From the IMG/VR virus record IMGVR_UViG_3300025072_002799, positions 1-64,000 of that record: 64,000 nucleotides of DNA; one strand, given 5' to 3'. Origin of the DNA: a virus. Each line of letters opens with the position of its first letter. Within the stretch, counting starts at the first letter, position 1. Positions 4,065 to 22,762 of this stretch are shown here, piece after piece. Made by a program: the position numbers and the translations under genes. The notes beneath the pieces are model-generated. The model had not been told where the DNA came from, did not search any database, and saw nothing but the letters and a program-made list of their open reading frames with translations.

Positions 4065-4075
4065 GATAGTTTCCT

Positions 4076-4369
4076 TTAATAAAGTTCAGTTTTTGATATA
4101 AAAAACATGCATTTACATTTTTTACAAAACATCCTAACAATGTATTTCTTTGCTCTTTTTCCATCTACCATCGTCTCGTTTTCATCTACTGCTTTATCAG
4201 TAAACACATCTTCTGTACATTCTGGGCATTGAATTTGCTTGTAATCATTTATCCACCACGTCCCATGGCTGATCACTGTTACTGCTGGTGGTGGGGAAAC
4301 ATCTTCTTCTTCAGTCATTTTTGTCCATGCTTTGAACATATCATTAATCATTTTGCACCAATTCAACAT
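4076..4369 (-). CDS. zinc-ribbon protein
   Basis: CPEC and CKKC pairs. Confidence 0.65.
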   Translation of the reverse strand: MLNWCKMINDMFKAWTKMTEEEDVSPPPAVTVISHGTWWINDYKQIQCPECTEDVFTDKAVDENETMVDGKRAKKYIVRMFCKKCKCMFFISKTELY

Positions 4370-4577
4370 GTTCTGCCAACACGCCTACATCTTTGATCTC
4401 CAAAAACGTTTCTAAATAAACAAACTTATCATCAAAACGACTAACTGGGAGCCATGCTCCATGATTTTTAAGTGCATCAACCAACTCTATGCATGTATTG
4501 GTTGGAGCGCCGTGATCCAAGATGACCTCCAAAATGTCTTCTGAAATGACATCTTTTTTAAGTCTAGCTTCAATCAT
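4344..4577 (-). CDS. hypothetical protein
   Basis: 77 aa; ATGA overlap with the coaC fusion. Confidence 0.6.
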   Translation of the reverse strand: MIEARLKKDVISEDILEVILDHGAPTNTCIELVDALKNHGAWLPVSRFDDKFVYLETFLEIKDVGVLAEHVELVQND

Positions 4578-8774: not shown

Positions 8775-9941
8775 ATGGAAGATTACACATATAAATTCAG
8801 ACTCTATCCAACAAAGGAGCAAGAGATTAAGCTTGCCAAGCATTTCGGTTGTGTGCGTTGGGCATATAACCACTTTCTTGACCGACGTGTAAAATTCTAC
8901 CTTAATGCTAAAGAACAAGATCTTGAAAAGAAATCACTTAACTACAATGACGACTCCAGAGAATTAACAATTATCAAGAAAGAAAAAACTTGGTTAAACG
9001 AGGTTAATGCGCAATCATTACAACATTCACTAAAACATTTGGAATCAAGTTTCAATCGCTTCTACAAAAAGTTGGCAAAGTTTCCACGCTTTAAAAATAG
9101 TCGATCAAAACAAAGTTTTAGAGTTCCGCAGAGCATTAAGGTAAAAGACAATATGCTTTATATTGTAAAATTCAGAGAAGGCATTAAAGTTAATCTACAT
9201 CGTCAAATTGAAGGCAAAATTTGCAATGCTACGATCAGCAGAAATAAAGTTGGTCAGTATTATGTGTGTATTGGGGTGCAACGACATATTCCTAAACTCA
9301 AACCAAACGAAAACCAAGTTGGCGTTGATTTAGGAGTTAAAACACTTGTTACGTGCTCAGATGGCAAAGCGTTTAAGAACATTAAGCCATATCGCAATCT
9401 TCAAGATCGCAGACGCATTTATGCAAAAGCATTGTCACGGACAGAAAAGGGAACTCGTGGCAGAGACAAAGCACGACGCAAACTTGCGAAATTAGACTTG
9501 AAGATAGCCAATATACGAAACAATCATTTGCATAAAATTAGTCATCAACTTGTTAGCGAGAACCAAACTATCGTGATGGAAGATTTGAACGTAAAAGGAA
9601 TGTTGAGTAATCGCAAATTGTCCAAAGCCATTTGGGACTGTTCTTTATCAGAATTAACTCGACAGATCGAGTATAAATGTAAGTGGTATGGTCGAGAATT
9701 TTTACAAGTTAGCCGATGGTTTCCATCTAGTAAAACTTGTGAAAGTTGCGGATACGTCAACGATGGTTTGACGTTAGCCGATAGAGAATGGACTTGTCCA
9801 AGATGCAAAGTTAAGCATGATCGTGACATGAATGCTGCAAGAAACATTTTGCGACAAGGATTAAATCAAGAAAATAGAACCGTAGGAACTACGGAGATAG
9901 CCGATTGTCTTGGTGTAAGACCTGCTTTAGCAGGCAACTGA
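8775..9941 (+). CDS. tnpB: IS200/IS605-family RNA-guided endonuclease TnpB
   Basis: YKFRLYPT HTH; RuvC residues in GVDLG, MEDL and DRDMNAA; CESC/CPRC zinc finger. Confidence 0.95.
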   Translation: MEDYTYKFRLYPTKEQEIKLAKHFGCVRWAYNHFLDRRVKFYLNAKEQDLEKKSLNYNDDSRELTIIKKEKTWLNEVNAQSLQHSLKHLESSFNRFYKKLAKFPRFKNSRSKQSFRVPQSIKVKDNMLYIVKFREGIKVNLHRQIEGKICNATISRNKVGQYYVCIGVQRHIPKLKPNENQVGVDLGVKTLVTCSDGKAFKNIKPYRNLQDRRRIYAKALSRTEKGTRGRDKARRKLAKLDLKIANIRNNHLHKISHQLVSENQTIVMEDLNVKGMLSNRKLSKAIWDCSLSELTRQIEYKCKWYGREFLQVSRWFPSSKTCESCGYVNDGLTLADREWTCPRCKVKHDRDMNAARNILRQGLNQENRTVGTTEIADCLGVRPALAGN

Positions 9942-13835: not shown

Positions 13836-14012
13836 TTATTTATATTTATCACCACTTTTTATTCCAAACAGCTTCTCTGCTTTTTTGGAACGTTTCGTAA
13901 CTGGCTTATATTTAGTACGTCCCTTTAATAATCCATTATTGCTAACATCTCCCATTCCCATGGAATTCTGTCCCAATCCTTGTTCTAGCCATTTTTTAAA
14001 GCATAATTTCAT
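13836..14012 (-). CDS. 58-aa basic protein (MKLCFKKWLE...)
   Basis: Manual translation; ATGA overlap with the HAD gene; carries the FxxWLE motif. Confidence 0.6.
   Translation of the reverse strand: MKLCFKKWLEQGLGQNSMGMGDVSNNGLLKGRTKYKPVTKRSKKAEKLFGIKSGDKYK
13837..13844 (-). promoter_or_regulatory. T4-type late promoter TATAAATA
   Basis: Exact octamer 6 nt before the ATG at 13830. Confidence 0.6.
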
Positions 14013-14851
14013 TTTTTTACCGGAATATCAATGACATAATGACCTGACTGGTTGTTAAAAACTTGATGTATTACAAAAGACTCTAAATTTGGCCACATCT
14101 TAAACAGCTTGTCTCCCATAGACTTCCAATGGGGGATATGGTCGCTTCTATCGTCCCAAGTCTCTATAACTCTAATATTGTTGTGCATAAGCTTGTTTAC
14201 AACCGCATATTCTTTATGCGCCCAAGTATCTGCAACAGGCTTTCCTTTGGCGGTTTGTGGATAATCTGGCTCAGTTCTTAAATCTCCACTATAAAATTCA
14301 TCATGCGAACCAGGACCTTCATCGTTTGCATGAGGAACATGATTGTCAATTGCCTTCTCATTAGAGTCTGGGATGTATCTCTTTCCATGAAGGTCATGAT
14401 GCTTCAAAACATTTCTTACGTGGTCAGAAGCAACGTCACGTCGCCCTGTAATCATTGCCACATGAGTATTTGGGTCAACCTTAGCCTGTCTCATTGCATC
14501 GACTATAGAGTCATTCATGGGCTTTCCAGGGAAGTGCGTGTCTCCCAACGAAGCTTCGCTTCCCCACCAATCTTTTCCATCCCAGCCACCCAAATGATCA
14601 TGAACGACCTTTTCAGCGTTATCCATATCAAGTTTAGCGGACTGTCTTTGACGTGCTGTTGATGTTTCGCTTTTGTGAGCAGCCCTATGCTTCTTTCTTG
14701 CATTATTAAGCTTTTTAATGGAAGACTGAGCCTCTGTAGACCTATGTGGGGTTTCTGGAACTCTTGCAAGAGTGCTGTCAAAATCGAAAATTGCTAATCG
14801 TGTCTTCATCGGCTGGTGTGCCTCAAAAAAGTTTTTAAAGTATAGTTCCAT
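14009..14851 (-). CDS. HAD phosphatase, Swiss-Army-Knife RNA-repair-like
   Basis: IFDFDSTL (motif I), WW, ITGR and WDDR..H motifs; start moved to MELYFKNFFE after CATAGATA. Confidence 0.75.
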   Translation of the reverse strand: MELYFKNFFEAHQPMKTRLAIFDFDSTLARVPETPHRSTEAQSSIKKLNNARKKHRAAHKSETSTARQRQSAKLDMDNAEKVVHDHLGGWDGKDWWGSEASLGDTHFPGKPMNDSIVDAMRQAKVDPNTHVAMITGRRDVASDHVRNVLKHHDLHGKRYIPDSNEKAIDNHVPHANDEGPGSHDEFYSGDLRTEPDYPQTAKGKPVADTWAHKEYAVVNKLMHNNIRVIETWDDRSDHIPHWKSMGDKLFKMWPNLESFVIHQVFNNQSGHYVIDIPVKK

Positions 14852-14876
14852 ACGTTTATCTATGTGTGGGCGCATT

Positions 14877-14916
14877 AAAAAACCCACCAAGATGTTACCA
14901 TCTTGATGGGTTTTTT
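14877..14916 (-). terminator. intrinsic terminator closing the ncRNA block
   Basis: AAAAAACCCATCAAGATG-GTAA-CATCTTGGTGGGTTTTTT on the minus strand. Confidence 0.85.
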
Positions 14917-15478
14917 ACAACGCACAATCCGCTAATCCACTATGGTTAAGTGAACTAACCTATTAACGGCAACTCTTAGCATTACTCCAGCAGGGATGTA
15001 CGTCACAACCTGTTGGCTCACCACTTGGGGATCTTTTTCTATATGCTCGAAATGTCATTTCACAAAAATTCTTGAATAATAGCCAACTACTGTTACCATA
15101 GATGGTCATTATTTTTCAAACTTTTCAAAAACAACACACTTGCATGTTAGGATTGGTCCAAGTTCTTAATGTTGCAAACGTCGTTTGCTATTCTGAATTA
15201 AGTAACAGAATCGTTTCTTTGGAGATCAATAATTCTCCAGGCTCAACAAAGCAATTGAAATGCGACCATTCCTTGAAGGCTTAATTTAGTAAATGCAAAC
15301 CTAAATGTATCCCGCTTTGTACCAAGGCTTCTATATCAAAAATCACACCAAATGGTAGATGCTCACCATTTTCGTATTGGTTTTTTTGATATAGATTTGA
15401 TTAAACTACTTTTGTTCCACATCTTCATTTCTGAGATTTGGTTTTCACTTAATCGCCTAATTCAGTCCTTTCACTCTC
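14917..15478 (-). ncRNA. large ornate ncRNA, ROOL-like
   Basis: ~560 nt without a credible ORF; long-range TTAAGTGAA/TTCACTTAA and GTTGGCT/AGCCAAC pairings; 13-bp stem 15330-15342/15383-15395; motif strings resemble ROOL as recalled, not searched. Confidence 0.6.
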
Positions 15479-15481
15479 TAA

Positions 15482-15518
15482 TATTTAGTTCTAACATAAC
15501 CAATTAGATGTGTGTCAA
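15482..15518 (-). promoter_or_regulatory. candidate promoter for the ROOL-like RNA
   Basis: TTGACA (15513-15518) upstream of the late-type octamer ACTAAATA (15482-15489). Confidence 0.45.
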
Positions 15519-15524
15519 CAGTGT

Positions 15525-15750
15525 TTTAACCCTTGCGGCGTGATCTCATTCTTGACGTTAGTAATTAGAATGATGTCCATAGTTAGTCAGACTTAGTTCC
15601 GAAGCCCACTCACAGGTTAACGGTTAACGTCCCCCAAAACAGCCAGTCTTGGTTTAGTTTCCCGTAAAGATTATGGCGTGTCCCATATTCTTTCCCAGCC
15701 TTATCAGCTTTTGCAAGAGTGGATTTCTCCACTCCTCTGTGAGATTTTTT
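15525..15750 (-). ncRNA. unassigned structured RNA, ~230 nt
   Basis: CTCACAG/CTGTGAG enclosing helix, GAGTGGA-GAAA-TCCACTC, TCATTCT/AGAATGA and CC-GCAA-GG. Confidence 0.5.
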
Positions 15751-15755
15751 GTTTC

Positions 15756-15770
15756 AAATTGTCAAAGATC
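15756..15770 (-). promoter_or_regulatory. boxA-like antitermination site
   Basis: GATCTTTGACAATTT resembles rrn boxA and lies downstream of the tRNA-like elements. Confidence 0.55.
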
Positions 15771-15836
15771 TGATTTGTGTGGGCGAATTACATGCGATCA
15801 ACAGTGATGAACCTCCCGCAAGACACCAGCACACAG

Positions 15837-15917
15837 TGGGGTGGAAAGGGATCGAACCTTTCAATTTAACTCTTGCTCGAAAGCAAGGGTTACGTTTTTC
15901 CACTAAACTACACCCCA
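15837..15917 (-). ncRNA. anticodon-less tRNA-like RNA 3
   Basis: TGGGGTG TA GTTT-AGTGGAA-AAAC G TAACCCTTGCT-TTCG-AGCAAGAGTTA AATT GAAAGG-TTCGATC-CCTTTC CACCCCA. Confidence 0.85.
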
Positions 15918-15984
15918 AATGAAGCACTAAAATTAATTAAAAATCATTGGCGACGACTTTCTGACTAATTGCTAGTGCCTCAAG

Positions 15985-16066
15985 CAGTAGGGGGAGGAAT
16001 TTAACCTCCCATCTCTTACTCTTGCCCGTAGACATGAGTAAACGCTTTACTATAAGCTACCTACTA
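15985..16066 (-). ncRNA. anticodon-less tRNA-like RNA 2
   Basis: TAGTAGG TA GCTT-ATAGTA-AAGC G TTTACTCATGTC-TACG-GGCAAGAGTAAG AGAT GGGAGG-TTAAATT-CCTCCC CCTACTG. Confidence 0.8.
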
Positions 16067-16210
16067 TAACAGACGATGGCGAGAAACATTCAACCGAGTC
16101 AAAGCCACCATCTATTACGCGACAGAAACCGTTAGGTTATCTGTCATGAGATTAGTGCAATTGAAAATAACGGTTGGCCCATAATTTTAACTATGCAACA
16201 AAATCTCAAG

Positions 16211-16292
16211 AGGTGGAGGAAGGTGTCGCGCCTTCCATCTCGACTCTCTCCCTAAGGAAAGTGTCGCGCTTTTCTAATTAAGCTATCCGCCT
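16211..16292 (-). ncRNA. anticodon-less tRNA-like RNA 1
   Basis: AGGCGGA TA GCTT-AATTAGAA-AAGC G CGACACTTTCC-TTAG-GGAGAGAGTCG AGAT GGAAGG-CGCGACA-CCTTCC TCCACCT. Confidence 0.75.
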
Positions 16293-16513
16293 TATCTTTT
16301 TTTAATCTTTCCTACCACTTCAACTTGAACAGGAACTTCATCAATGTTTTCTGGAAGTTCTTTTTCTGTTGGTGACAACAAATTTACTTTCAATCCATAT
16401 CCATCATCTAAACGAACAATTCCGACAGACACATGTTTTCCGACTATTGAGACAAAAGTTTCAACCGCTTTTTCTTTGGCTTTTCTAGCCAAATCAATGT
16501 TAGCGCCTTTCAT
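16292..16513 (-). CDS. hypothetical protein
   Basis: 73 aa with AGGGG SD; stop codon abuts tRNA-like RNA 1. Confidence 0.7.
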   Translation of the reverse strand: MKGANIDLARKAKEKAVETFVSIVGKHVSVGIVRLDDGYGLKVNLLSPTEKELPENIDEVPVQVEVVGKIKKR

Positions 16514-16525
16514 CTTTGCATCCCC

Positions 16526-16744
16526 TTATAGTTTATAGTGTCCACGTTTTCCTGGTCTGGAAATAAAATTTCCAATCGCCCTGAATGCATAACGAATATC
16601 GCCCACAAGAGACAAGCAATCGCCTTCTAATGTTAAAAAATCAGCGTCTCCAACATACTTGGCATCCAATTTTTCACCATCATAAGTCTCACACTCGTAC
16701 CAAACATCTACTACAAGATCTTTTTCTTCAATGTAACTTGCCAT
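16526..16744 (-). CDS. hypothetical protein
   Basis: ATG at 16744, 5 nt after a -10 box. Confidence 0.65.
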   Translation of the reverse strand: MASYIEEKDLVVDVWYECETYDGEKLDAKYVGDADFLTLEGDCLSLVGDIRYAFRAIGNFISRPGKRGHYKL

Positions 16745-16749
16745 AATCA

Positions 16750-16778
16750 ACTATAGTGGTTCAACCCATTCTTGTCAA
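16750..16778 (-). promoter_or_regulatory. sigma70-type promoter
   Basis: TTGACA-17 nt-TATAGT. Confidence 0.75.
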
Positions 16779-16784
16779 GTGGAT

Positions 16785-17420
16785 TTATTCCTCGTATCTT
16801 TTGTTGGCTACATCTTGCAAATCGCGTTCTAATTGGAATACCAACTCTCTTGAATCATCAGCTTCACCTCCATCTTGACAACCACGAAACAACATTGTGC
16901 TAAGCAAGTCACGTCTTATTAGACGACAGAATTGTGACACAAGATTGAATTCCATAAAGTGTTCTGGTGGCTTGAATTCTTCCGGCAAACGTTCACAAAT
17001 TTCTTCAAAATCTATATCGTCTAACTTTCCTCTTTCCAGACCAATTTCTTTTAGAGTACCCGTAAACATCAATCGTTCAAAACAAAAATGTTTCAAATTT
17101 GATGTAACTCTATCAATAAGAGGCTGTCCCCACATCGTGGCAGTCTTTTGATATTCAATTACACGATCCCACGCATCCTGGTGAAAGAAAATAGCTCTTT
17201 CTTGATAACACTCTTGCATGTCTTCTTTAGTTTCGCCTTCAATCCATCCATAGTCGTTATATTTGCTTTCTTTGTAGATGGCAGAGACATGCCTCATGTC
17301 AAATGTTGACTCAAAGTTGCAATACTTATGCATTTCCTTGTCAAATAGAACCATTACACAATCTTGCCCATGAAAAATTGGCAGGAGTGTAATTGCACAA
17401 GTTTCGTCCCAACAACCCAT
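16785..17420 (-). CDS. conserved phage hypothetical protein
   Basis: 211 aa; MGCWDETC and YNDYG motifs; AAGG SD. Confidence 0.75.
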   Translation of the reverse strand: MGCWDETCAITLLPIFHGQDCVMVLFDKEMHKYCNFESTFDMRHVSAIYKESKYNDYGWIEGETKEDMQECYQERAIFFHQDAWDRVIEYQKTATMWGQPLIDRVTSNLKHFCFERLMFTGTLKEIGLERGKLDDIDFEEICERLPEEFKPPEHFMEFNLVSQFCRLIRRDLLSTMLFRGCQDGGEADDSRELVFQLERDLQDVANKRYEE

Positions 17421-17468
17421 TTTTTATACCTTTCCAAATGCTCGCTAAGGCCACCGGAAGGCTCCTTT

Positions 17469-17579
17469 CTAAACAACTATAGTGACAAAAGTTTCTTTGT
17501 CAAACGATTTTCTTTTCGCTTTCGTTTGCGTCCGTCCCTCTCGACTAAACAACTATAGACGCCTCAAAAAAAAATGCAA
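17469..17579 (-). promoter_or_regulatory. tandem sigma70-type promoters
   Basis: TTGACA-16-TATAGT and TTGCAT-16-TATAGT; both contain CTATAGTTGTTTAG (17469-17482 and 17545-17558). Confidence 0.6.
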
Positions 17580-17617
17580 GCGATTTTTCCCATTTTTGTT
17601 CGAAATCGCTTGCATTT
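17566..17617 (-). terminator. terminator after the cca gene
   Basis: 15-bp perfect inverted repeat AAATGCAAGCGATTT with a T-run on the minus strand. Confidence 0.7.
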
Positions 17618-17643
17618 AAGGGTTTTAGGCTAAAAAATAATGC

Positions 17644-19182
17644 CTACATGTTTAGTTTTGAGTGCTTTCCAAGGAAGTCACCATACATTTTTGCCACCAA
17701 TTGCTGTTTTCTGTTTCCTACAGATGGACCATGAACCTGTCCAGAAATAGGATCTCTCAAATCAGCAAAGTCTTGATGAAGGTTATCGTCATCGTCATAC
17801 ACAGAAGGCATTTTCGACTTCATCAGATCTCGGAGCGCATTAGTATGACCAGATGGTCGTTTCATAAGTTTTGACCACCTTTCCAATCTTCCTCCATCAT
17901 TGGCATATTCTCCTGGCCAAGGATTATTGGCATGCATCCTCATTAACTCTTTTCCATCTTCATGATCCATCGCAGAAGAATTCATCAACCATGTGATTGC
18001 TTTTACTTCTGTGTTTGGCCATCCAGCACTATTCAGCATTTTGGTAACTTTGCCAATGTCATTGTCTCTTAGAATCCAAGCAACAGATACCAAACGATCT
18101 TTCTCGTTGATAATGTCTTCTGGACCGTCTAACTTGAATGTCATTCCAGGGAATACCTTTTTGAGGAATCCAAGATCACGATACAAACGAATGTATTTCT
18201 TAGGATCAATCTCAGAGTCTTCCAACCCTTTCAAGAATTCGTCTCTAGCACGTTCTTTAGACACTGACTTGAAATTGTCTTCAACAAGAGTTTCAATGGC
18301 TTCTTTATACTTTGGAGGAATGTTTGCGACAGTTCCTTTTCCGTATTTGGAATAGAAACGGACATATCTAAATGCTCGCAATTGATCTTCCTCAAGTCTG
18401 TCTGATGCTTTTCCAACAAACAGAACATCAGAATTTCCTTTCCCACCAGACATATGGGTCAATCCGCCATGAGGGTCATGTAGTTTTCCATTGGCACCGT
18501 CTGCGTTGTCCAATTTGATGTACATGGCGTTAATGGTGAAGTCTCTACGACCAGCATCTCCAGCAAGGTCAGAAAAACTCATCTTGTCTGGAGTTCTACC
18601 ATCTCCACTCTTGGAGTCTTCGCGGAAAGTAGCAAGTTCCATTTCTTCGCCACCACCAATACGGATTCCAATGACAAATTCACTGCCCTCTCTATCCCAT
18701 CCTTTGGCATAAAATTGCTTATTCTTATCCTGAGTGACACCTTTGGGCGGTTTAATATTATCTACATTCGACTTTTTCCCAGCCCCGCCAGTACCTTCAG
18801 TCTCGGTAAATCCCTGAGAAAGAAGAATCATTCGGATTTCACTAGGAGTTGCATCTGTTGCCAAGTCAAGATCCTTGGGCTTTTTCCCAAGCATATGATC
18901 CCTAACAGCGCCACCTACCAAATAGAGGCTCTTTCTCTTTAGTTTGATGTCTTCGGTGCCGCCTTCTCCCTTAACGGTGTTGTATCCACCAGAGATAAAG
19001 TCTCCAACACGGACATTTCCACTTTCATTAAAAGCCTTGATGACAGGAACTAACACAGAGTTATTGCTTCTATCCACAATGAACTCTTGACCTTTTTCAA
19101 GTTTTCGGTCAGTGCTAGTTGCTTTTGGTCCGTCAGAACCCTCTTGAAGCTTAACGAAATTACTGAAAGATTGTTTTTTCAT
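17644..19182 (-). CDS. cca: class II tRNA nucleotidyltransferase (CCA- or A-adding type)
   Basis: LVGGAVRD, DLDLAT, ELATFRE..DGR.P loop, RRDFTINAM and EDQLR motifs; poly(A) polymerase signature not seen. Confidence 0.85.
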   Translation of the reverse strand: MKKQSFSNFVKLQEGSDGPKATSTDRKLEKGQEFIVDRSNNSVLVPVIKAFNESGNVRVGDFISGGYNTVKGEGGTEDIKLKRKSLYLVGGAVRDHMLGKKPKDLDLATDATPSEIRMILLSQGFTETEGTGGAGKKSNVDNIKPPKGVTQDKNKQFYAKGWDREGSEFVIGIRIGGGEEMELATFREDSKSGDGRTPDKMSFSDLAGDAGRRDFTINAMYIKLDNADGANGKLHDPHGGLTHMSGGKGNSDVLFVGKASDRLEEDQLRAFRYVRFYSKYGKGTVANIPPKYKEAIETLVEDNFKSVSKERARDEFLKGLEDSEIDPKKYIRLYRDLGFLKKVFPGMTFKLDGPEDIINEKDRLVSVAWILRDNDIGKVTKMLNSAGWPNTEVKAITWLMNSSAMDHEDGKELMRMHANNPWPGEYANDGGRLERWSKLMKRPSGHTNALRDLMKSKMPSVYDDDDNLHQDFADLRDPISGQVHGPSVGNRKQQLVAKMYGDFLGKHSKLNM

Positions 19183-21462: not shown

Positions 21463-22762
21463 TCAATTGCCCCGCCGCCAAAAGACGGCAGGGCTTGTTA
21501 CACTGCCTAAGCAGAAACATTAGCGGTTGTTAAACCACCGTTAGGCAAATTGACAGTTGCCCAATCTGGATAGCCTGTAGCGTCCAGATATTTGAGTACA
21601 ATATTTTTACTAGCATTAAGGTCAGCATTCAATTGGAAGCCACACTTTCTACATTTGAAATTGCTTTGGTTCTGGCGATTGCCTTTGTGTATGTGTCCGC
21701 ATTTGCTACATCTTTGCGAAGTGTAGCGTGCGTCAACATACACGACTTGACATCCTTTTGCCATCGCTTTGTAAGTCAAAAATTGTTCAAATTGAAAGAA
21801 ATTCCATTTATTCACTTCCTTGCGTTGTGGTTTACGAAATTTAGTCGCTCCACCACGAATGCCAGTAAGTTTTTCAAGAACGATGGTTGTTCCTTTTTCA
21901 AGATCTTTAACAATTTGTTTGGCAATACAATGGTTAATGTCCTTCCGCATAAGCCGTTCGCTTCGACTAATTTTAGCCAAGTGTCTTTTTGCAGAACGAG
22001 TGCCTTTACTTTGCAAAGCACTTCTCAACCTTTCATATCGTTCACTCAATCGTTTAATTCTTCCGCCACCGTAAAACCTATTGTCACTTACCGTAGCCAA
22101 TTTTCTGATGCCTCGATCAATGCCAATCATTTTTCCAGATGGTTCAACATCTTCAGTTTCTTTTTCAAAGACAATGTGCAGAAATGTTTTGCCTTTGACT
22201 TGAAAAAGATCTGCCGAGCATCGTTTCCATGTAAGATATTGTTCAAAATGTTTGGGGACAAAAATAGGAAGTCGAACTCTGCCTTTAAGTGTCAAAATGT
22301 TGATGGTCCTATTGGCAAAATCAACAGTCAAACTTCTGTCATCGTACCTAATTGTCGAGCATTTATTTTTAGGACAGGAAACTTTCTTTCCTTTCTTTTT
22401 ACTAACTTGAGTAGAAGCAAGTGCTTCTGTGGCTTTAACTCTGGCAGAAATAGCCAGTTGGCTTTTGAGTCCCGTGTCATTTCTGACTTGGTGGTAGGTC
22501 AAATGATGCAGACTAACTCCGTTAAACTCTTGGTTGTCCCAAGCAGTTTGACAAACATAATTGAAAGCGTCAGTATATGCTTCAAGCGTTGGCTTGAAGG
22601 TTTCACTGTCAACTTCCAATTTCAATTTAATGGTTCTCATCTGTTTCATATACGTACTCTATATAGAGTAGTCGAAGACAGATTTTGCCATAAATTATTT
22701 AAATTTTGTACTAATTATTTTGGAGACGGGCATCCTCACGGCTTTGACGTAGGAGTTTCTTG
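21462..22762 (-). mobile_element. non-autonomous IS200/IS605-family element (tnpB only)
   Basis: Right end ACAAGCCCTGCCGTCTTTTGGCGGCGGGGCAATTGAT; left-end-like imperfect hairpin at ~22730-22762; no tnpA. Confidence 0.7.
21507..22649 (-). CDS. tnpB: RNA-guided endonuclease TnpB
   Basis: RTIKLKL N-terminus; GIDRG, VLEKL, YTSQRCSKCG and NADLNAS motifs. Confidence 0.95.
   Translation of the reverse strand: MKQMRTIKLKLEVDSETFKPTLEAYTDAFNYVCQTAWDNQEFNGVSLHHLTYHQVRNDTGLKSQLAISARVKATEALASTQVSKKKGKKVSCPKNKCSTIRYDDRSLTVDFANRTINILTLKGRVRLPIFVPKHFEQYLTWKRCSADLFQVKGKTFLHIVFEKETEDVEPSGKMIGIDRGIRKLATVSDNRFYGGGRIKRLSERYERLRSALQSKGTRSAKRHLAKISRSERLMRKDINHCIAKQIVKDLEKGTTIVLEKLTGIRGGATKFRKPQRKEVNKWNFFQFEQFLTYKAMAKGCQVVYVDARYTSQRCSKCGHIHKGNRQNQSNFKCRKCGFQLNADLNASKNIVLKYLDATGYPDWATVNLPNGGLTTANVSA

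What the first reader, a model, noticed from the sequence alone, without database searches (positions are those of the whole stretch)
14009..19182. Candidate new RNA system: CCA enzyme, three anticodon-less tRNA mimics, two structured RNAs and an RNA-repair HAD phosphatase
Seen, in minus-strand order: cca-type gene, three small ORFs, a TTGACA-17-TATAGT promoter among them, three tRNA-like folds without an anticodon loop or encoded CCA, boxA, a ~230-nt RNA, a ~560-nt ROOL-like RNA, a terminator and a HAD phosphatase. Known: CCA enzymes recognise the acceptor/T-stem half of tRNA and ignore the anticodon; HAD phosphatases of the T4 Pnkp type heal RNA 3' ends; phages use such enzymes against host anticodon nucleases. 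Inference: this is a module that makes and matures non-decoding tRNA mimics. They could be nuclease decoys, processing tags for the large RNA, or its cargo.
Basis: partly seen in the sequence, partly recalled or inferred. Interest (0 to 1): 0.92.

Follow-up and report, generated by a model that had tools for sequence, protein, structure and literature searches.

The report
Phage operon of anticodon-less tRNA look-alikes
A large uncultured marine phage carries, between a tRNA-tail-adding enzyme gene and an RNA-end phosphatase gene, a 1.4-kb protein-free stretch that encodes three tRNA-shaped RNAs with a sealed hairpin in place of the anticodon loop, followed by two larger folded RNAs; two related phages keep these RNAs, no RNA database lists them, and their job is unknown.

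Summary
The observation largely holds. On the minus strand lie a class II CCA-adding/poly(A)-polymerase-family gene, three orphan ORFs behind two near-consensus promoters, three cloverleaf RNAs (M1-M3), a boxA-like 13-mer, two structured RNAs, a terminator and a HAD phosphatase. M1-M3 end their anticodon arm in a tetraloop and encode no CCA.

The RNAs look real. M1-M3 plus one member from a 436-kb phage are 95% paired, with compensatory changes in 14 of 27 pairs. RNA-A and RNA-B recur colinearly in two related metagenomic phage contigs, without any conserved ORF.

"ROOL-like" is not supported. No Rfam family matches either large RNA.

The five-part "system" is not conserved as a unit. Enzyme plus tRNA-likes plus RNAs occur in two genomes, RNAs plus HAD in two, and all five only here. 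Enzyme and HAD are adjacent in one more distant phage (G005) without the large RNAs.

In that phage, none of 47 tRNA genes checked encodes CCA, and 38 carry the "CU" trailer also seen after the mimics.

My reading: a non-coding RNA operon whose tRNA look-alikes mature through the ordinary tRNA pathway, including CCA addition. The enzyme and HAD are general tRNA-end maintenance genes, not dedicated partners.

This scan has noted other sealed-anticodon phage tRNA mimics on other DNA. I found no paper describing them.

The parts
17644..19182 (-). Class II tRNA nucleotidyltransferase (CCA-adding / poly(A) polymerase family), 512 aa. It has a ~85-aa N-terminal extension and an insertion between motifs A and B.
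   Evidence: PF01743 E 1.7e-25 and PF12627. phrog_2244 E 1e-43. Best NCBIfam match is CCA PRK13299 at 105 bits (cut-off 290), against pcnB at 90 bits. PDB CCA enzymes score 64 bits and E. coli PAP 52 bits. Motifs GGAVRD..DLD, RRDFTIN, EDQLR and SKER are read.
17566..17617 (-). Intrinsic terminator after the nucleotidyltransferase gene: a 15-bp stem followed by a U-run.
   Evidence: Read from the sequence. The scan tool missed it because its loop exceeds 8 nt.
16785..17503 (-). Promoter-like site (17503-17476) and ORF211 (17420-16785), an orphan.
   Evidence: Promoter scores 11/12. No Pfam, PHROG or NCBIfam hit. The Atlas gives no usable hit. No homolog in L046 or L048.
16292..16778 (-). Promoter-like site (16778-16750), then ORF74 (16750/16744-16526) and ORF73 (16513-16292), both orphans. 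They lie directly upstream of the RNA array.
16210..16292 (-). M1, a tRNA-like RNA with a sealed anticodon arm (UUAG tetraloop), a C-A mismatch in the acceptor stem and no encoded CCA.
   Evidence: Cloverleaf MFE. CM R1 scores 92.8 bits. Covariation.
15984..16066 (-). M2, a tRNA-like RNA with a sealed anticodon arm (UACG tetraloop).
15836..15917 (-). M3, a tRNA-like RNA with a sealed anticodon arm (UUCG tetraloop). It keeps canonical G18G19 and a UUCGAUC T loop.
   Evidence: Rfam tRNA 35.1 bits..
15756..15768 (-). boxA-like 13-mer TCTTTGACAATTT.
   Evidence: Exact copies lie at the same relative place in L046 (4480) and inside the tRNA array of G005 (L044 244-256). None has a -10 hexamer at promoter spacing.
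15590..15748 (-). RNA-A: a multi-stem element closed by a covarying helix and followed by the invariant GGGCUUCGGA.
   Evidence: The closing helix is CUCACAG/CUGUGAG here, CGUAG/CUACG in L046 and CUCGCG/CGCGAG in L048. Shared motifs are colinear. MFE z is -4.7. No Rfam hit.
14912..15480 (-). RNA-B: a ~560-nt structured RNA with a conserved core at 15285-15195.
   Evidence: CM R2 matches the three sequences it was built from (by construction) - window 82 bits, L046 89, L048 107 - and nothing else in 64 loci and 5 whole phage records. The core is 92% paired against ~40% in slid controls, with 6 of 17 pairs compensatory. MFE z is -3.1. No ROOL match.
14877..14910 (-). Terminator hairpin (12-bp stem, GUAA loop, U-run) that ends the RNA operon.
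   Evidence: listed from the + strand as 14888-14905.
14009..14851 (-). HAD phosphatase of the HAD_SAK_1 / Pnkp-phosphatase type. The likely start is the ATG at 14851.
   Evidence: PF10307 E 6.9e-5, below the cut-off. Seven of 10 homologs carry PF10307. phrog_415 E 1e-10. DxDxT and DD motifs. AF2 model pLDDT 87. Best structural matches are Pnkp1 at Z 12.6 and T4 Pnkp phosphatase at Z 12.0.

Best explanation
This is a non-coding RNA operon of a marine jumbo phage. It sits in the part of the genome that also holds the phage's tRNA 3'-end maintenance genes.

Transcription most likely starts at the promoter at 16778-16750, or further upstream. It runs through two small ORFs, three tRNA-shaped RNAs, a boxA-like element that probably keeps the polymerase going on untranslated RNA, and two structured RNAs (A about 150 nt, B about 560 nt), and stops at the terminator at 14910-14877.

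The three tRNA look-alikes descend from tRNA genes. They keep what RNase P, RNase Z and CCA-adding enzymes recognise: the acceptor stem, the T arm, U8-A9 and the D stem. The anticodon loop has been replaced by a closed hairpin, so they cannot decode.

They would be cut out like tRNAs and receive CCA after transcription, from the phage enzyme, the host enzyme or both.

The nucleotidyltransferase and the HAD phosphatase are general tRNA-end repair and maturation genes of this phage lineage. They are neighbours by inherited gene order, not a dedicated machine for the mimics.

Shown: the RNAs exist as conserved, structurally constrained, ORF-free sequence, and they share the 3' trailer signature of the lineage's real tRNA genes. 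Inferred: processing, CCA addition and antitermination. Unknown: what the matured mimics and RNA-A/B do.
For: - Cloverleaf folds with sealed anticodon arms.
- Among M1-M3, 95% of cells pair and 13 of 27 pairs show double changes, reached by 0 of 500 shuffles; slid controls pair at 49-56%. The result holds when the G005 member is added: 14 of 27 pairs.
- L046, whose enzyme is 51% identical, has three tRNA-like RNAs directly behind that gene. They have closed GCAA/GUAA-capped arms, and one scores 38.3 bits on Rfam tRNA.
- RNA-A and RNA-B are colinear in the window, L046 and L048, with covarying helices.
- tblastx finds no conserved ORF (best E 0.3, against 3e-153 for the enzyme gene).
- The boxA-like 13-mer is exact in three phages and never has a -10 hexamer at promoter spacing.
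- In G005, 0 of 47 tRNA genes checked encode CCA and 38 of 47 have CU after the discriminator. The mimics read U|CU, G|CU and A|CU, and the L046 elements read N|CUUU.
- Gene order around the locus is shared with L046, L047, L048 and G005.
- CCA enzymes and stand-alone 'Swiss-army-knife' HADs are already described as jumbo-phage RNA-repair genes (PMC7824862).
Against: - No expression data exist: no RNA run is listed for this DNA.
- Only three genomes carry RNA-A/B and only two carry tRNA-like arrays. All belong to one small clade, so shared ancestry alone could explain the adjacency.
- L048 keeps RNA-A/B without any detectable tRNA-like RNA.
- The window's mimics and the L046 elements differ greatly (compact 82 nt against 115-156 nt with D-loop insertions). 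Their homology is inferred from position and layout, not from alignment.
- The T and D loops of M1 and M2 are non-canonical, so recognition by RNase P or the CCA enzyme is not assured.
- Sequence cannot separate a CCA-adding enzyme from a poly(A) polymerase.
Confidence: 0.55

Rival explanations
1. The phage enzyme, the HAD and the RNAs form one functional module that makes CCA-tailed tRNA decoys against host toxins acting on the tRNA acceptor end or elbow. The HAD heals damaged 3' ends.
For: All parts lie within 5.2 kb on one strand. The mimics keep only the acceptor/T half and need CCA addition. The HAD is structurally closest to Pnkp-type RNA 3' phosphatases. Phage tRNAs are known counter-defences (PMC11555353 and 10.1101/2024.01.02.573894, titles and abstracts).
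Against: The parts separate in relatives. A terminator lies between the enzyme gene and the RNAs, and another between the RNAs and the HAD. The lineage needs CCA addition for ordinary tRNAs anyway.
Confidence: 0.12
2. The tRNA-like units are handles or linked partners of the large RNAs. In this view the arrangement parallels ROOL and GOLLD, large phage RNAs found next to tRNA islands or joined to tRNAs. The units would set the ends of RNA-A/B through RNase P/Z cleavage, or travel with RNA-A/B as cargo.
For: They share strand and apparent transcript with RNA-A/B in the window and L046. ROOL and GOLLD are phage RNAs often near tRNA islands, and tRNAs sometimes sit in the GOLLD linker (10.1101/2024.12.08.627333). 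In L046 the three units are packed with 4-5-nt spacers directly ahead of RNA-A.
Against: L048 has RNA-A/B with its own promoter-like site and no tRNA-like unit. RNA-B is not a ROOL or GOLLD member. One unit would suffice to define an end, yet three divergent units are kept. G005 has a lone mimic far from any RNA-A/B.
Confidence: 0.15
3. The elements are decaying tRNA pseudogenes left from a former tRNA island and have no function of their own.
For: ARAGORN rejects them. M1 and M2 have degenerate D and T loops and fall below the Rfam tRNA threshold. Relatives at 49% enzyme identity lack them.
Against: All four M-type copies, from two very distant phages, replace the anticodon loop in the same way, with a long, almost perfectly paired, tetraloop-capped stem. 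They show 14 compensatory pairs. Random decay would not repeatedly build stable UUCG or GNRA hairpins. L046 keeps three such units as well.
Confidence: 0.08
4. They are aminoacylated, non-decoding carriers that hand an amino acid to a non-ribosomal reaction such as cell-wall, DNA or protein modification, charged by a synthetase that reads only the acceptor end.
For: They have an intact acceptor/T minihelix and would carry CCA after maturation. tRNA-dependent DNA hypermodification by a phage enzyme has been reported (PMC13219725, abstract). This scan noted sealed tRNA-Glu look-alikes alongside a phage GluRS on other DNA (e1-5345864, unchecked).
Against: None of the acceptor-only identity sets I know from the literature (not tested here) is present: no G3:U70 (Ala), no G-1 opposite C73 (His) and no long variable arm (Ser) (read). 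No synthetase or transferase gene lies nearby. The three acceptor stems differ from one another.
Confidence: 0.07

Closest known systems
CCA-less phage and bacterial tRNA genes (Rfam RF00005), such as the T4 tRNAs that depend on RNase BN/Z and the host CCA enzyme (that dependence is from my own knowledge)
   Same: Cloverleaf with acceptor stem, U8-A9, D stem, 4-nt variable loop and T arm. No encoded CCA. Same 'N73 + CU' trailer as the 47 checked tRNA genes of relative G005. M3 passes the Rfam tRNA threshold.
   Different: There is no 7-nt anticodon loop; the arm is a closed 10-11-bp hairpin with a tetraloop. M1 and M2 lack G18G19 and the canonical T loop. The predicted acceptor/T stack is 6+6 (or 7+6) instead of 7+5. 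They cannot decode.
ROOL (RF03087) and GOLLD, large ornate phage RNAs
   Same: Several-hundred-nt, highly structured, phage-encoded, next to or linked with tRNA(-like) genes, function unknown.
   Different: No match to ROOL or to any other Rfam family at E<=10. The conserved core motifs differ. Multimer formation is untested.
YrlA / bacterial Y RNAs with Ro60 (PMC4201824)
   Same: Non-decoding RNAs that mimic tRNA, also found in phages and linked to RNA repair genes.
   Different: As I recall it, YrlA is closed at the acceptor-like stem and open at the opposite end, and it partners a TROVE/Ro protein. Here the ends are at the acceptor stem, the neighbour is a nucleotidyltransferase, no TROVE domain was found and no Y RNA family matched in Rfam.
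mascRNA / MALAT1 tRNA-like element (PMC8457004 lists the system; details are from my own knowledge)
   Same: A tRNA-like unit inside a long non-coding transcript, cut by RNase P and RNase Z and then CCA-tailed, without decoding.
   Different: That element is eukaryotic, single-copy and keeps a small anticodon-like loop. Here three units sit in tandem in a phage.
Jumbo-phage RNA repair gene sets: CCA-adding enzyme plus stand-alone 'Swiss-army-knife' HAD (Iyer et al. 2021, PMC7824862)
   Same: The two flanking proteins belong to exactly these two families, and the two genes are adjacent in G005.
   Different: That survey describes proteins and ordinary tRNAs. It does not describe sealed-anticodon tRNA look-alikes or RNA-A/B.

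Membership tests
tRNA (RF00005) | Cloverleaf that scores above the Rfam gathering threshold (29 bits) | tested here: inconclusive
   M3 scores 35.1 bits. M1 and M2 are not reported even at E<=10. All three give cloverleaf MFE folds.
tRNA (RF00005) | Seven-nucleotide anticodon loop with U33 and an anticodon triplet | tested here: not met
   The loops are the tetraloops UUAG, UACG and UUCG on 10-11-bp stems. ARAGORN calls none.
tRNA (RF00005) | 3' CCA, encoded or added | not testable with these tools
   CCA is not encoded. Addition would need RNA 3'-end data, and no RNA run is available.
ROOL (RF03087) | Match to the ROOL covariance model | tested here: not met
   No match at E<=10 in the whole 111-kb record or in the region scans. 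The tool's control genomes also gave no ROOL hit, so sensitivity was not demonstrated.
YrlA / Y RNA with Ro60 | Ro60 (TROVE) partner gene and a Y RNA covariance-model match | tested here: not met
   No TROVE domain in the neighbouring proteins. No Y RNA or YrlA hit.
Class II CCA-adding enzyme | Head domain with motifs A-E (GGxVRD..DxD, RRDxTxN, EDxxR, ..ER..) | tested here: met
   PF01743 E 1.7e-25. Motifs read and invariant among 7 clade members.
Class II CCA-adding enzyme | Assignment to CCA-adding and not poly(A) polymerase | tested here: inconclusive
   CCA models score 105 and 97 bits and pcnB 90 bits, all far below their cut-offs. PDB CCA enzymes score 64 bits and PAP 52 bits.
HAD_SAK_1 (PF10307) / Pnkp-type polynucleotide 3' phosphatase | HAD catalytic motifs and a family profile match | tested here: inconclusive
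   DxDxT (FDFDSTL), ITGR and WDD are present. PF10307 scores 23.1 bits, below the 25.6 cut-off. Seven of 10 homologs carry PF10307. phrog_415 E 1e-10.
HAD_SAK_1 (PF10307) / Pnkp-type polynucleotide 3' phosphatase | Fold closest to Pnkp phosphatase domains | tested here: met
   VIA-align top rows are Pnkp1 4xrp (Z 12.6, rmsd 2.7, 133 aligned) and T4 Pnkp 5uj0 (Z 12.0); generic HADs reach Z<=10.2. Foldseek alone ranks 5'-nucleotidase III first, with TM only 0.3. The model also has a helical insert after motif I.
HAD_SAK_1 (PF10307) / Pnkp-type polynucleotide 3' phosphatase | Activity on RNA 3'-phosphate ends | not testable with these tools
   Needs an enzyme assay.
boxA antitermination element | Conserved boxA-like sequence at the head of an untranslated operon | tested here: inconclusive
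   An exact 13-mer is shared by three phages at RNA/tRNA operons, without a -10 hexamer. The resemblance to E. coli rrn boxA (GCTCTTTAACAATTTA) is from memory. One exact copy in 64 kb is not itself above chance at 2 mismatches.

The most novel reading that the evidence does not exclude
Marine jumbo phages of this clade encode a previously undescribed RNA system. It would consist of a family of sealed-anticodon tRNA mimics with a non-canonical 6+6 acceptor/T stack and two new large structured RNAs. The mimics would be cut out and CCA-tailed like tRNAs and then act in trans on proteins that grip the tRNA acceptor/elbow half. RNA-A/B would form a higher-order RNA particle, as ROOL and GOLLD do, with the mimics as its partners.
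Probability: 0.2. Interest if true: 0.85.

Novelty: new variant of a known kind. Interest (0 to 1): 0.62.

Why it matters
tRNA genes are among the commonest auxiliary genes of large phages, and they are usually read as codon-usage or anti-defence helpers. Here the copies keep the whole tRNA body but have the decoding loop sealed. They recur in two very distant phages and carry the same 3' trailer as real tRNA genes. This points to a selected use of the tRNA shape that has nothing to do with reading codons.

RNA-A and RNA-B are two further structured RNAs with no Rfam match, kept next to these mimics. They give a second, independent example of the unexplained link between large phage RNAs and tRNA islands. 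That link could be tested by RNA 3'-end sequencing, processing assays and cryo-EM.

The CCA-less 'CU' trailer of a whole phage tRNA set also gives a plain reason why these phages carry their own CCA-family enzyme.

Tried and rejected
- Not ROOL, GOLLD, Y RNA, RNase P or tmRNA: no Rfam hit at E<=10 on the window, L046 or L048 regions, and none for RF03087 on the whole record.
- Protein-coding reading of 14890-16290 rejected: tblastx best E is 0.3 and the longest sense frames are 58-88 aa.
- Short tRNA introns considered and rejected: there are no bulge-helix-bulge motifs, bacterial signals flank the elements, and excision would not restore a purine at position 37 (by reading).
- Histidine identity considered because the best ordinary-tRNA match to the model was tRNA-His. 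Rejected: no G-1, and other tRNAs score nearly as well.
- Searches for more homologs found nothing new. These were 28 + 32 enzyme loci with R1, R2 on 64 loci and five whole phage records, two DNA-pattern scans of viral contigs and one of genome contigs, blastn against 50,697 phage records, and the search for related loci with ORF211 and with the enzyme alignment in viral contigs.
The 9.4-kb contig of the closest relative (P0002 / P0123) could therefore not be fetched.
- Sequencing runs: 20 marine DNA runs from 15 studies hold the stretch, and no RNA holder is listed. The four runs laid were near-identical (2 SNPs), so they gave no variation to use.
- A PDB sequence search with the HAD and with its profile gave nothing meaningful. 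The Atlas gave no usable hit for ORF211.
- MAFFT/RNAalifold on RNA-A aligned poorly. Its structure rests on the hand-read closing helix and shared motifs only.

Full report
**What is there**

The window is the first 64 kb of a 111-kb IMG/VR record, which CheckV rates 22% complete. The same nucleotidyltransferase protein occurs on a contig of 389 kb, so this is a fragment of a jumbo phage. Near-identical DNA occurs in marine metagenomes from 15 studies.

On the minus strand I find, in order:
- A 512-aa class II nucleotidyltransferase at 19182-17644. It matches PF01743 at E 1.7e-25, PF12627, and phrog_2244 'tRNA nucleotidyltransferase' at E 1e-43.
- A long-stem terminator at 17617-17566 (read).
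- A TTGACA-16-TATAGT site at 17503-17476, followed by ORF211.
- A TTGACA-17-TATAGT site at 16778-16750, followed by ORF74 and ORF73. None of the three ORFs matches any family, and none has a homolog in the related loci.
- About 1.4 kb without a conserved ORF, from 16292 to 14910.
- A terminator at 14910-14877.
- A HAD phosphatase gene at 14851-14009.

**The tRNA look-alikes**

Three stretches fold by free energy alone into cloverleaves: M1 16292-16210, M2 16066-15984 and M3 15917-15836 (z -2.7, -3.9, -3.6).

Each has an acceptor stem, U8-A9, a 4-bp D stem, a 4-nt variable loop and a 6-bp T stem with a 7-nt loop. In place of the anticodon arm each has a 10-11-bp stem with one internal mismatch, closed by UUAG, UACG or UUCG.

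M3 passes the Rfam tRNA threshold at 35.1 bits. Its alignment shows a 13-nt insertion exactly at the anticodon loop. ARAGORN finds no tRNA in the window.

The three copies are only about 60% identical, yet 95% of cells pair and 13 of 27 pairs carry changes on both sides. No shuffle out of 500 reaches this, and slid controls pair at 49-56%.

A covariance model of the three (R1) finds no further copy in the 111-kb record. It does find one in the 436-kb phage G005, at L038 1501-1584, with 34 bits. ARAGORN does not call that element, and it is absent from the Rfam tRNA matches (E<=0.01) for that genome. Its arm ends in a GCAA tetraloop. With it added, 14 of 27 pairs are compensatory. I therefore reject chance and simple decay.

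**Register and trailer**

No CCA is encoded. In G005, none of the 47 tRNA genes checked (those lying in the 120 kb fetched, out of 62 Rfam matches) encodes CCA, and 38 of them have CU straight after the discriminator.

The mimics read U|CUUGAG, G|CUUGAG and A|CUGUGU, and the G005 mimic reads G|CUAG. With that register the acceptor stem is 6 bp and the T stem 6 bp. This keeps the 12-bp stack of ordinary tRNAs in a 6+6 split, with base -1 able to pair with base 73. A 7+6 reading is also possible.

The shared trailer is the best evidence available here that the mimics enter the same 3' maturation route as the lineage's real tRNAs, namely cleavage after the discriminator followed by CCA addition. 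That route is inferred, not shown.

**Relatives**

The enzyme family is large (1139 hits at E<=1e-10, many on contigs of 0.3-0.67 Mb), but close relatives are few.

Gene order around the locus is shared with L046, L047, L048 and, more distantly, G005.

L046 (enzyme 51% identical):
- The enzyme gene is followed by a TTGACA/TATACT site.
- Three tRNA-like units follow, at roughly 4066-4181, 4184-4339 and 4345-4470. They have 7-bp acceptor stems, UA, D stems carrying large hairpin insertions, closed arms (GCAA, GUAA or a 6-nt loop), UGAAAGY-type T loops and N|CUUU trailers. Only 4-5 nt separate them. The third scores 38.3 bits on Rfam tRNA.
- Next comes the same 13-mer TCTTTGACAATTT as in the window, then sequence colinear with the window's RNA-A and RNA-B, and a terminator.

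L048 (enzyme 49% identical):
- It has RNA-A and RNA-B directly upstream of its HAD gene (40% identical).
- These lie 6 kb from the enzyme gene, and no tRNA-like unit was detected.

Uninformative or negative loci:
- L047 ends 130 nt after the enzyme gene, and L045 is short and looks chimeric.
- Eighteen more distant enzyme loci have no Rfam hit at all.
- G005 has the enzyme and HAD side by side without RNA-A/B.

**The large RNAs**

RNA-A is a multi-stem element. Its closing helix changes by compensation: CUCACAG/CUGUGAG in the window, CGUAG/CUACG in L046 and CUCGCG/CGCGAG in L048. An invariant GGGCUUCGGA always follows it. Its MFE z-score is -4.7.

RNA-B has an almost invariant core, UGGUCGCA ... 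GAGCCURGA ... AGAAACGA, with covarying hairpins. The core is 92% paired against about 40% in slid controls, and 6 of 17 pairs are compensatory.

Model R2 scores the three sequences it was built from at 82-107 bits and finds nothing else in 64 loci or five whole phage records. The three high scores are expected by construction. The informative result is the absence of other matches.

tblastx between the three non-coding regions gives nothing better than E 0.3, against 3e-153 for the neighbouring enzyme gene.

No Rfam family matches at E<=10, ROOL included. The resemblance to ROOL and GOLLD is therefore one of context: a large phage RNA beside tRNA-type genes. It is not one of membership.

**boxA**

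The 13-mer is exact in the window, in L046 and inside the tRNA array of G005. No -10 hexamer follows it at promoter spacing in any of the three. From memory it closely resembles the E. coli rrn boxA. A role in keeping transcription going on untranslated RNA is plausible but untested.

**The proteins**

The nucleotidyltransferase has all the head-domain motifs. It also has an ~85-aa N-terminal extension that is conserved in its clade. It scores slightly better against CCA-adding enzymes than against poly(A) polymerases, but far below every curated cut-off. Its activity is therefore open.

The HAD keeps DxDxT and the other catalytic motifs. Seven of its 10 homologs carry PF10307. A confident model (pLDDT 87) aligns best with the phosphatase domains of Pnkp1 and T4 Pnkp (Z 12.6 and 12.0), above generic HADs at Z 10 or less. 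Foldseek alone ranks 5'-nucleotidases first, but weakly.

Both protein families are already described as jumbo-phage RNA-repair genes (PMC7824862).

**Interpretation**

I read the locus as a non-coding RNA operon embedded in the lineage's tRNA-end maintenance neighbourhood. The mimics are real, selected, non-decoding tRNA derivatives that most likely mature like tRNAs.

The enzyme and the HAD are probably general tRNA-end genes. Three points support this:
- The whole tRNA set of a relative lacks CCA.
- The two genes stay together where the RNAs are absent.
- Terminators separate them from the RNA operon.

Pairs of components co-occur, but the full set does not.

What the mimics and RNA-A/B do is unknown. 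Decoy, handle/cargo and amino-acid-carrier roles remain open at low individual odds.

**Prior art**

I found no paper in the held library that describes gene-encoded, anticodon-less phage tRNA mimics.

This scan's own notes list several such mimics on other phage DNA, mostly with an encoded CCA and next to Pth2-like or synthetase genes. I did not check those notes. If they hold, the present case is another member of a recurring but unpublished class. It would be distinguished by the absent CCA, the 6+6 stack, the CCA-enzyme neighbourhood and the two attached large RNAs.

Noticed in passing
G005 (record behind L033), 90-210 kb; loci L077-L082: None of the 47 tRNA genes checked encodes CCA, and 38 have CU directly after the discriminator. 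This is a lineage-wide trailer signature and would explain why these phages carry a CCA-family enzyme.
   Followed up: partly
L038:1501-1584 (G005:156248-156331): A lone sealed-anticodon tRNA mimic (GCAA tetraloop above a tandem G-A internal loop, 6+6 stack, G|CU trailer). It lies in an intergenic gap of a 436-kb phage, about 10 kb before that phage's tRNA arrays.
   Followed up: partly
window 8775-9941 (+) and 21507-22649 (-): Two TnpB / IS605 OrfB genes (OrfB_IS605 plus Cas12f1-like TNB domains) are inserted in the phage genome. The second interrupts the gene order that relatives share. Their guide RNAs were not looked for.
   Followed up: no
window 17644-19182 (residues 1-85): The nucleotidyltransferase carries a conserved ~85-aa N-terminal extension (invariant F6, L28, F34, V36 ...) that is absent from cellular CCA enzymes. 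Another first-stage note proposes a shared N-terminal leader on several enzymes of this phage.
   Followed up: no
L046:3760-4025 and L047:6500-6587: Directly after the enzyme gene, both relatives share a TATAGT site and a conserved stretch beginning CGCTTTGCTG. It is either a small hydrophobic ORF or another RNA, and the window has no counterpart.
   Followed up: no
window 14851-14910: The HAD gene starts 26 nt after the RNA-operon terminator, with no evident promoter between them. L048 has the same layout. Read-through from the RNA operon is possible.
   Followed up: no
   Followed up: no
window 15918-15983 and 16067-16209 (-): The spacers between the mimics are 66 and 143 nt here but only 4-5 nt in L046, where large hairpins sit inside the D loops instead. 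I did not test whether the spacer hairpins and the D-loop insertions are related.
   Followed up: no
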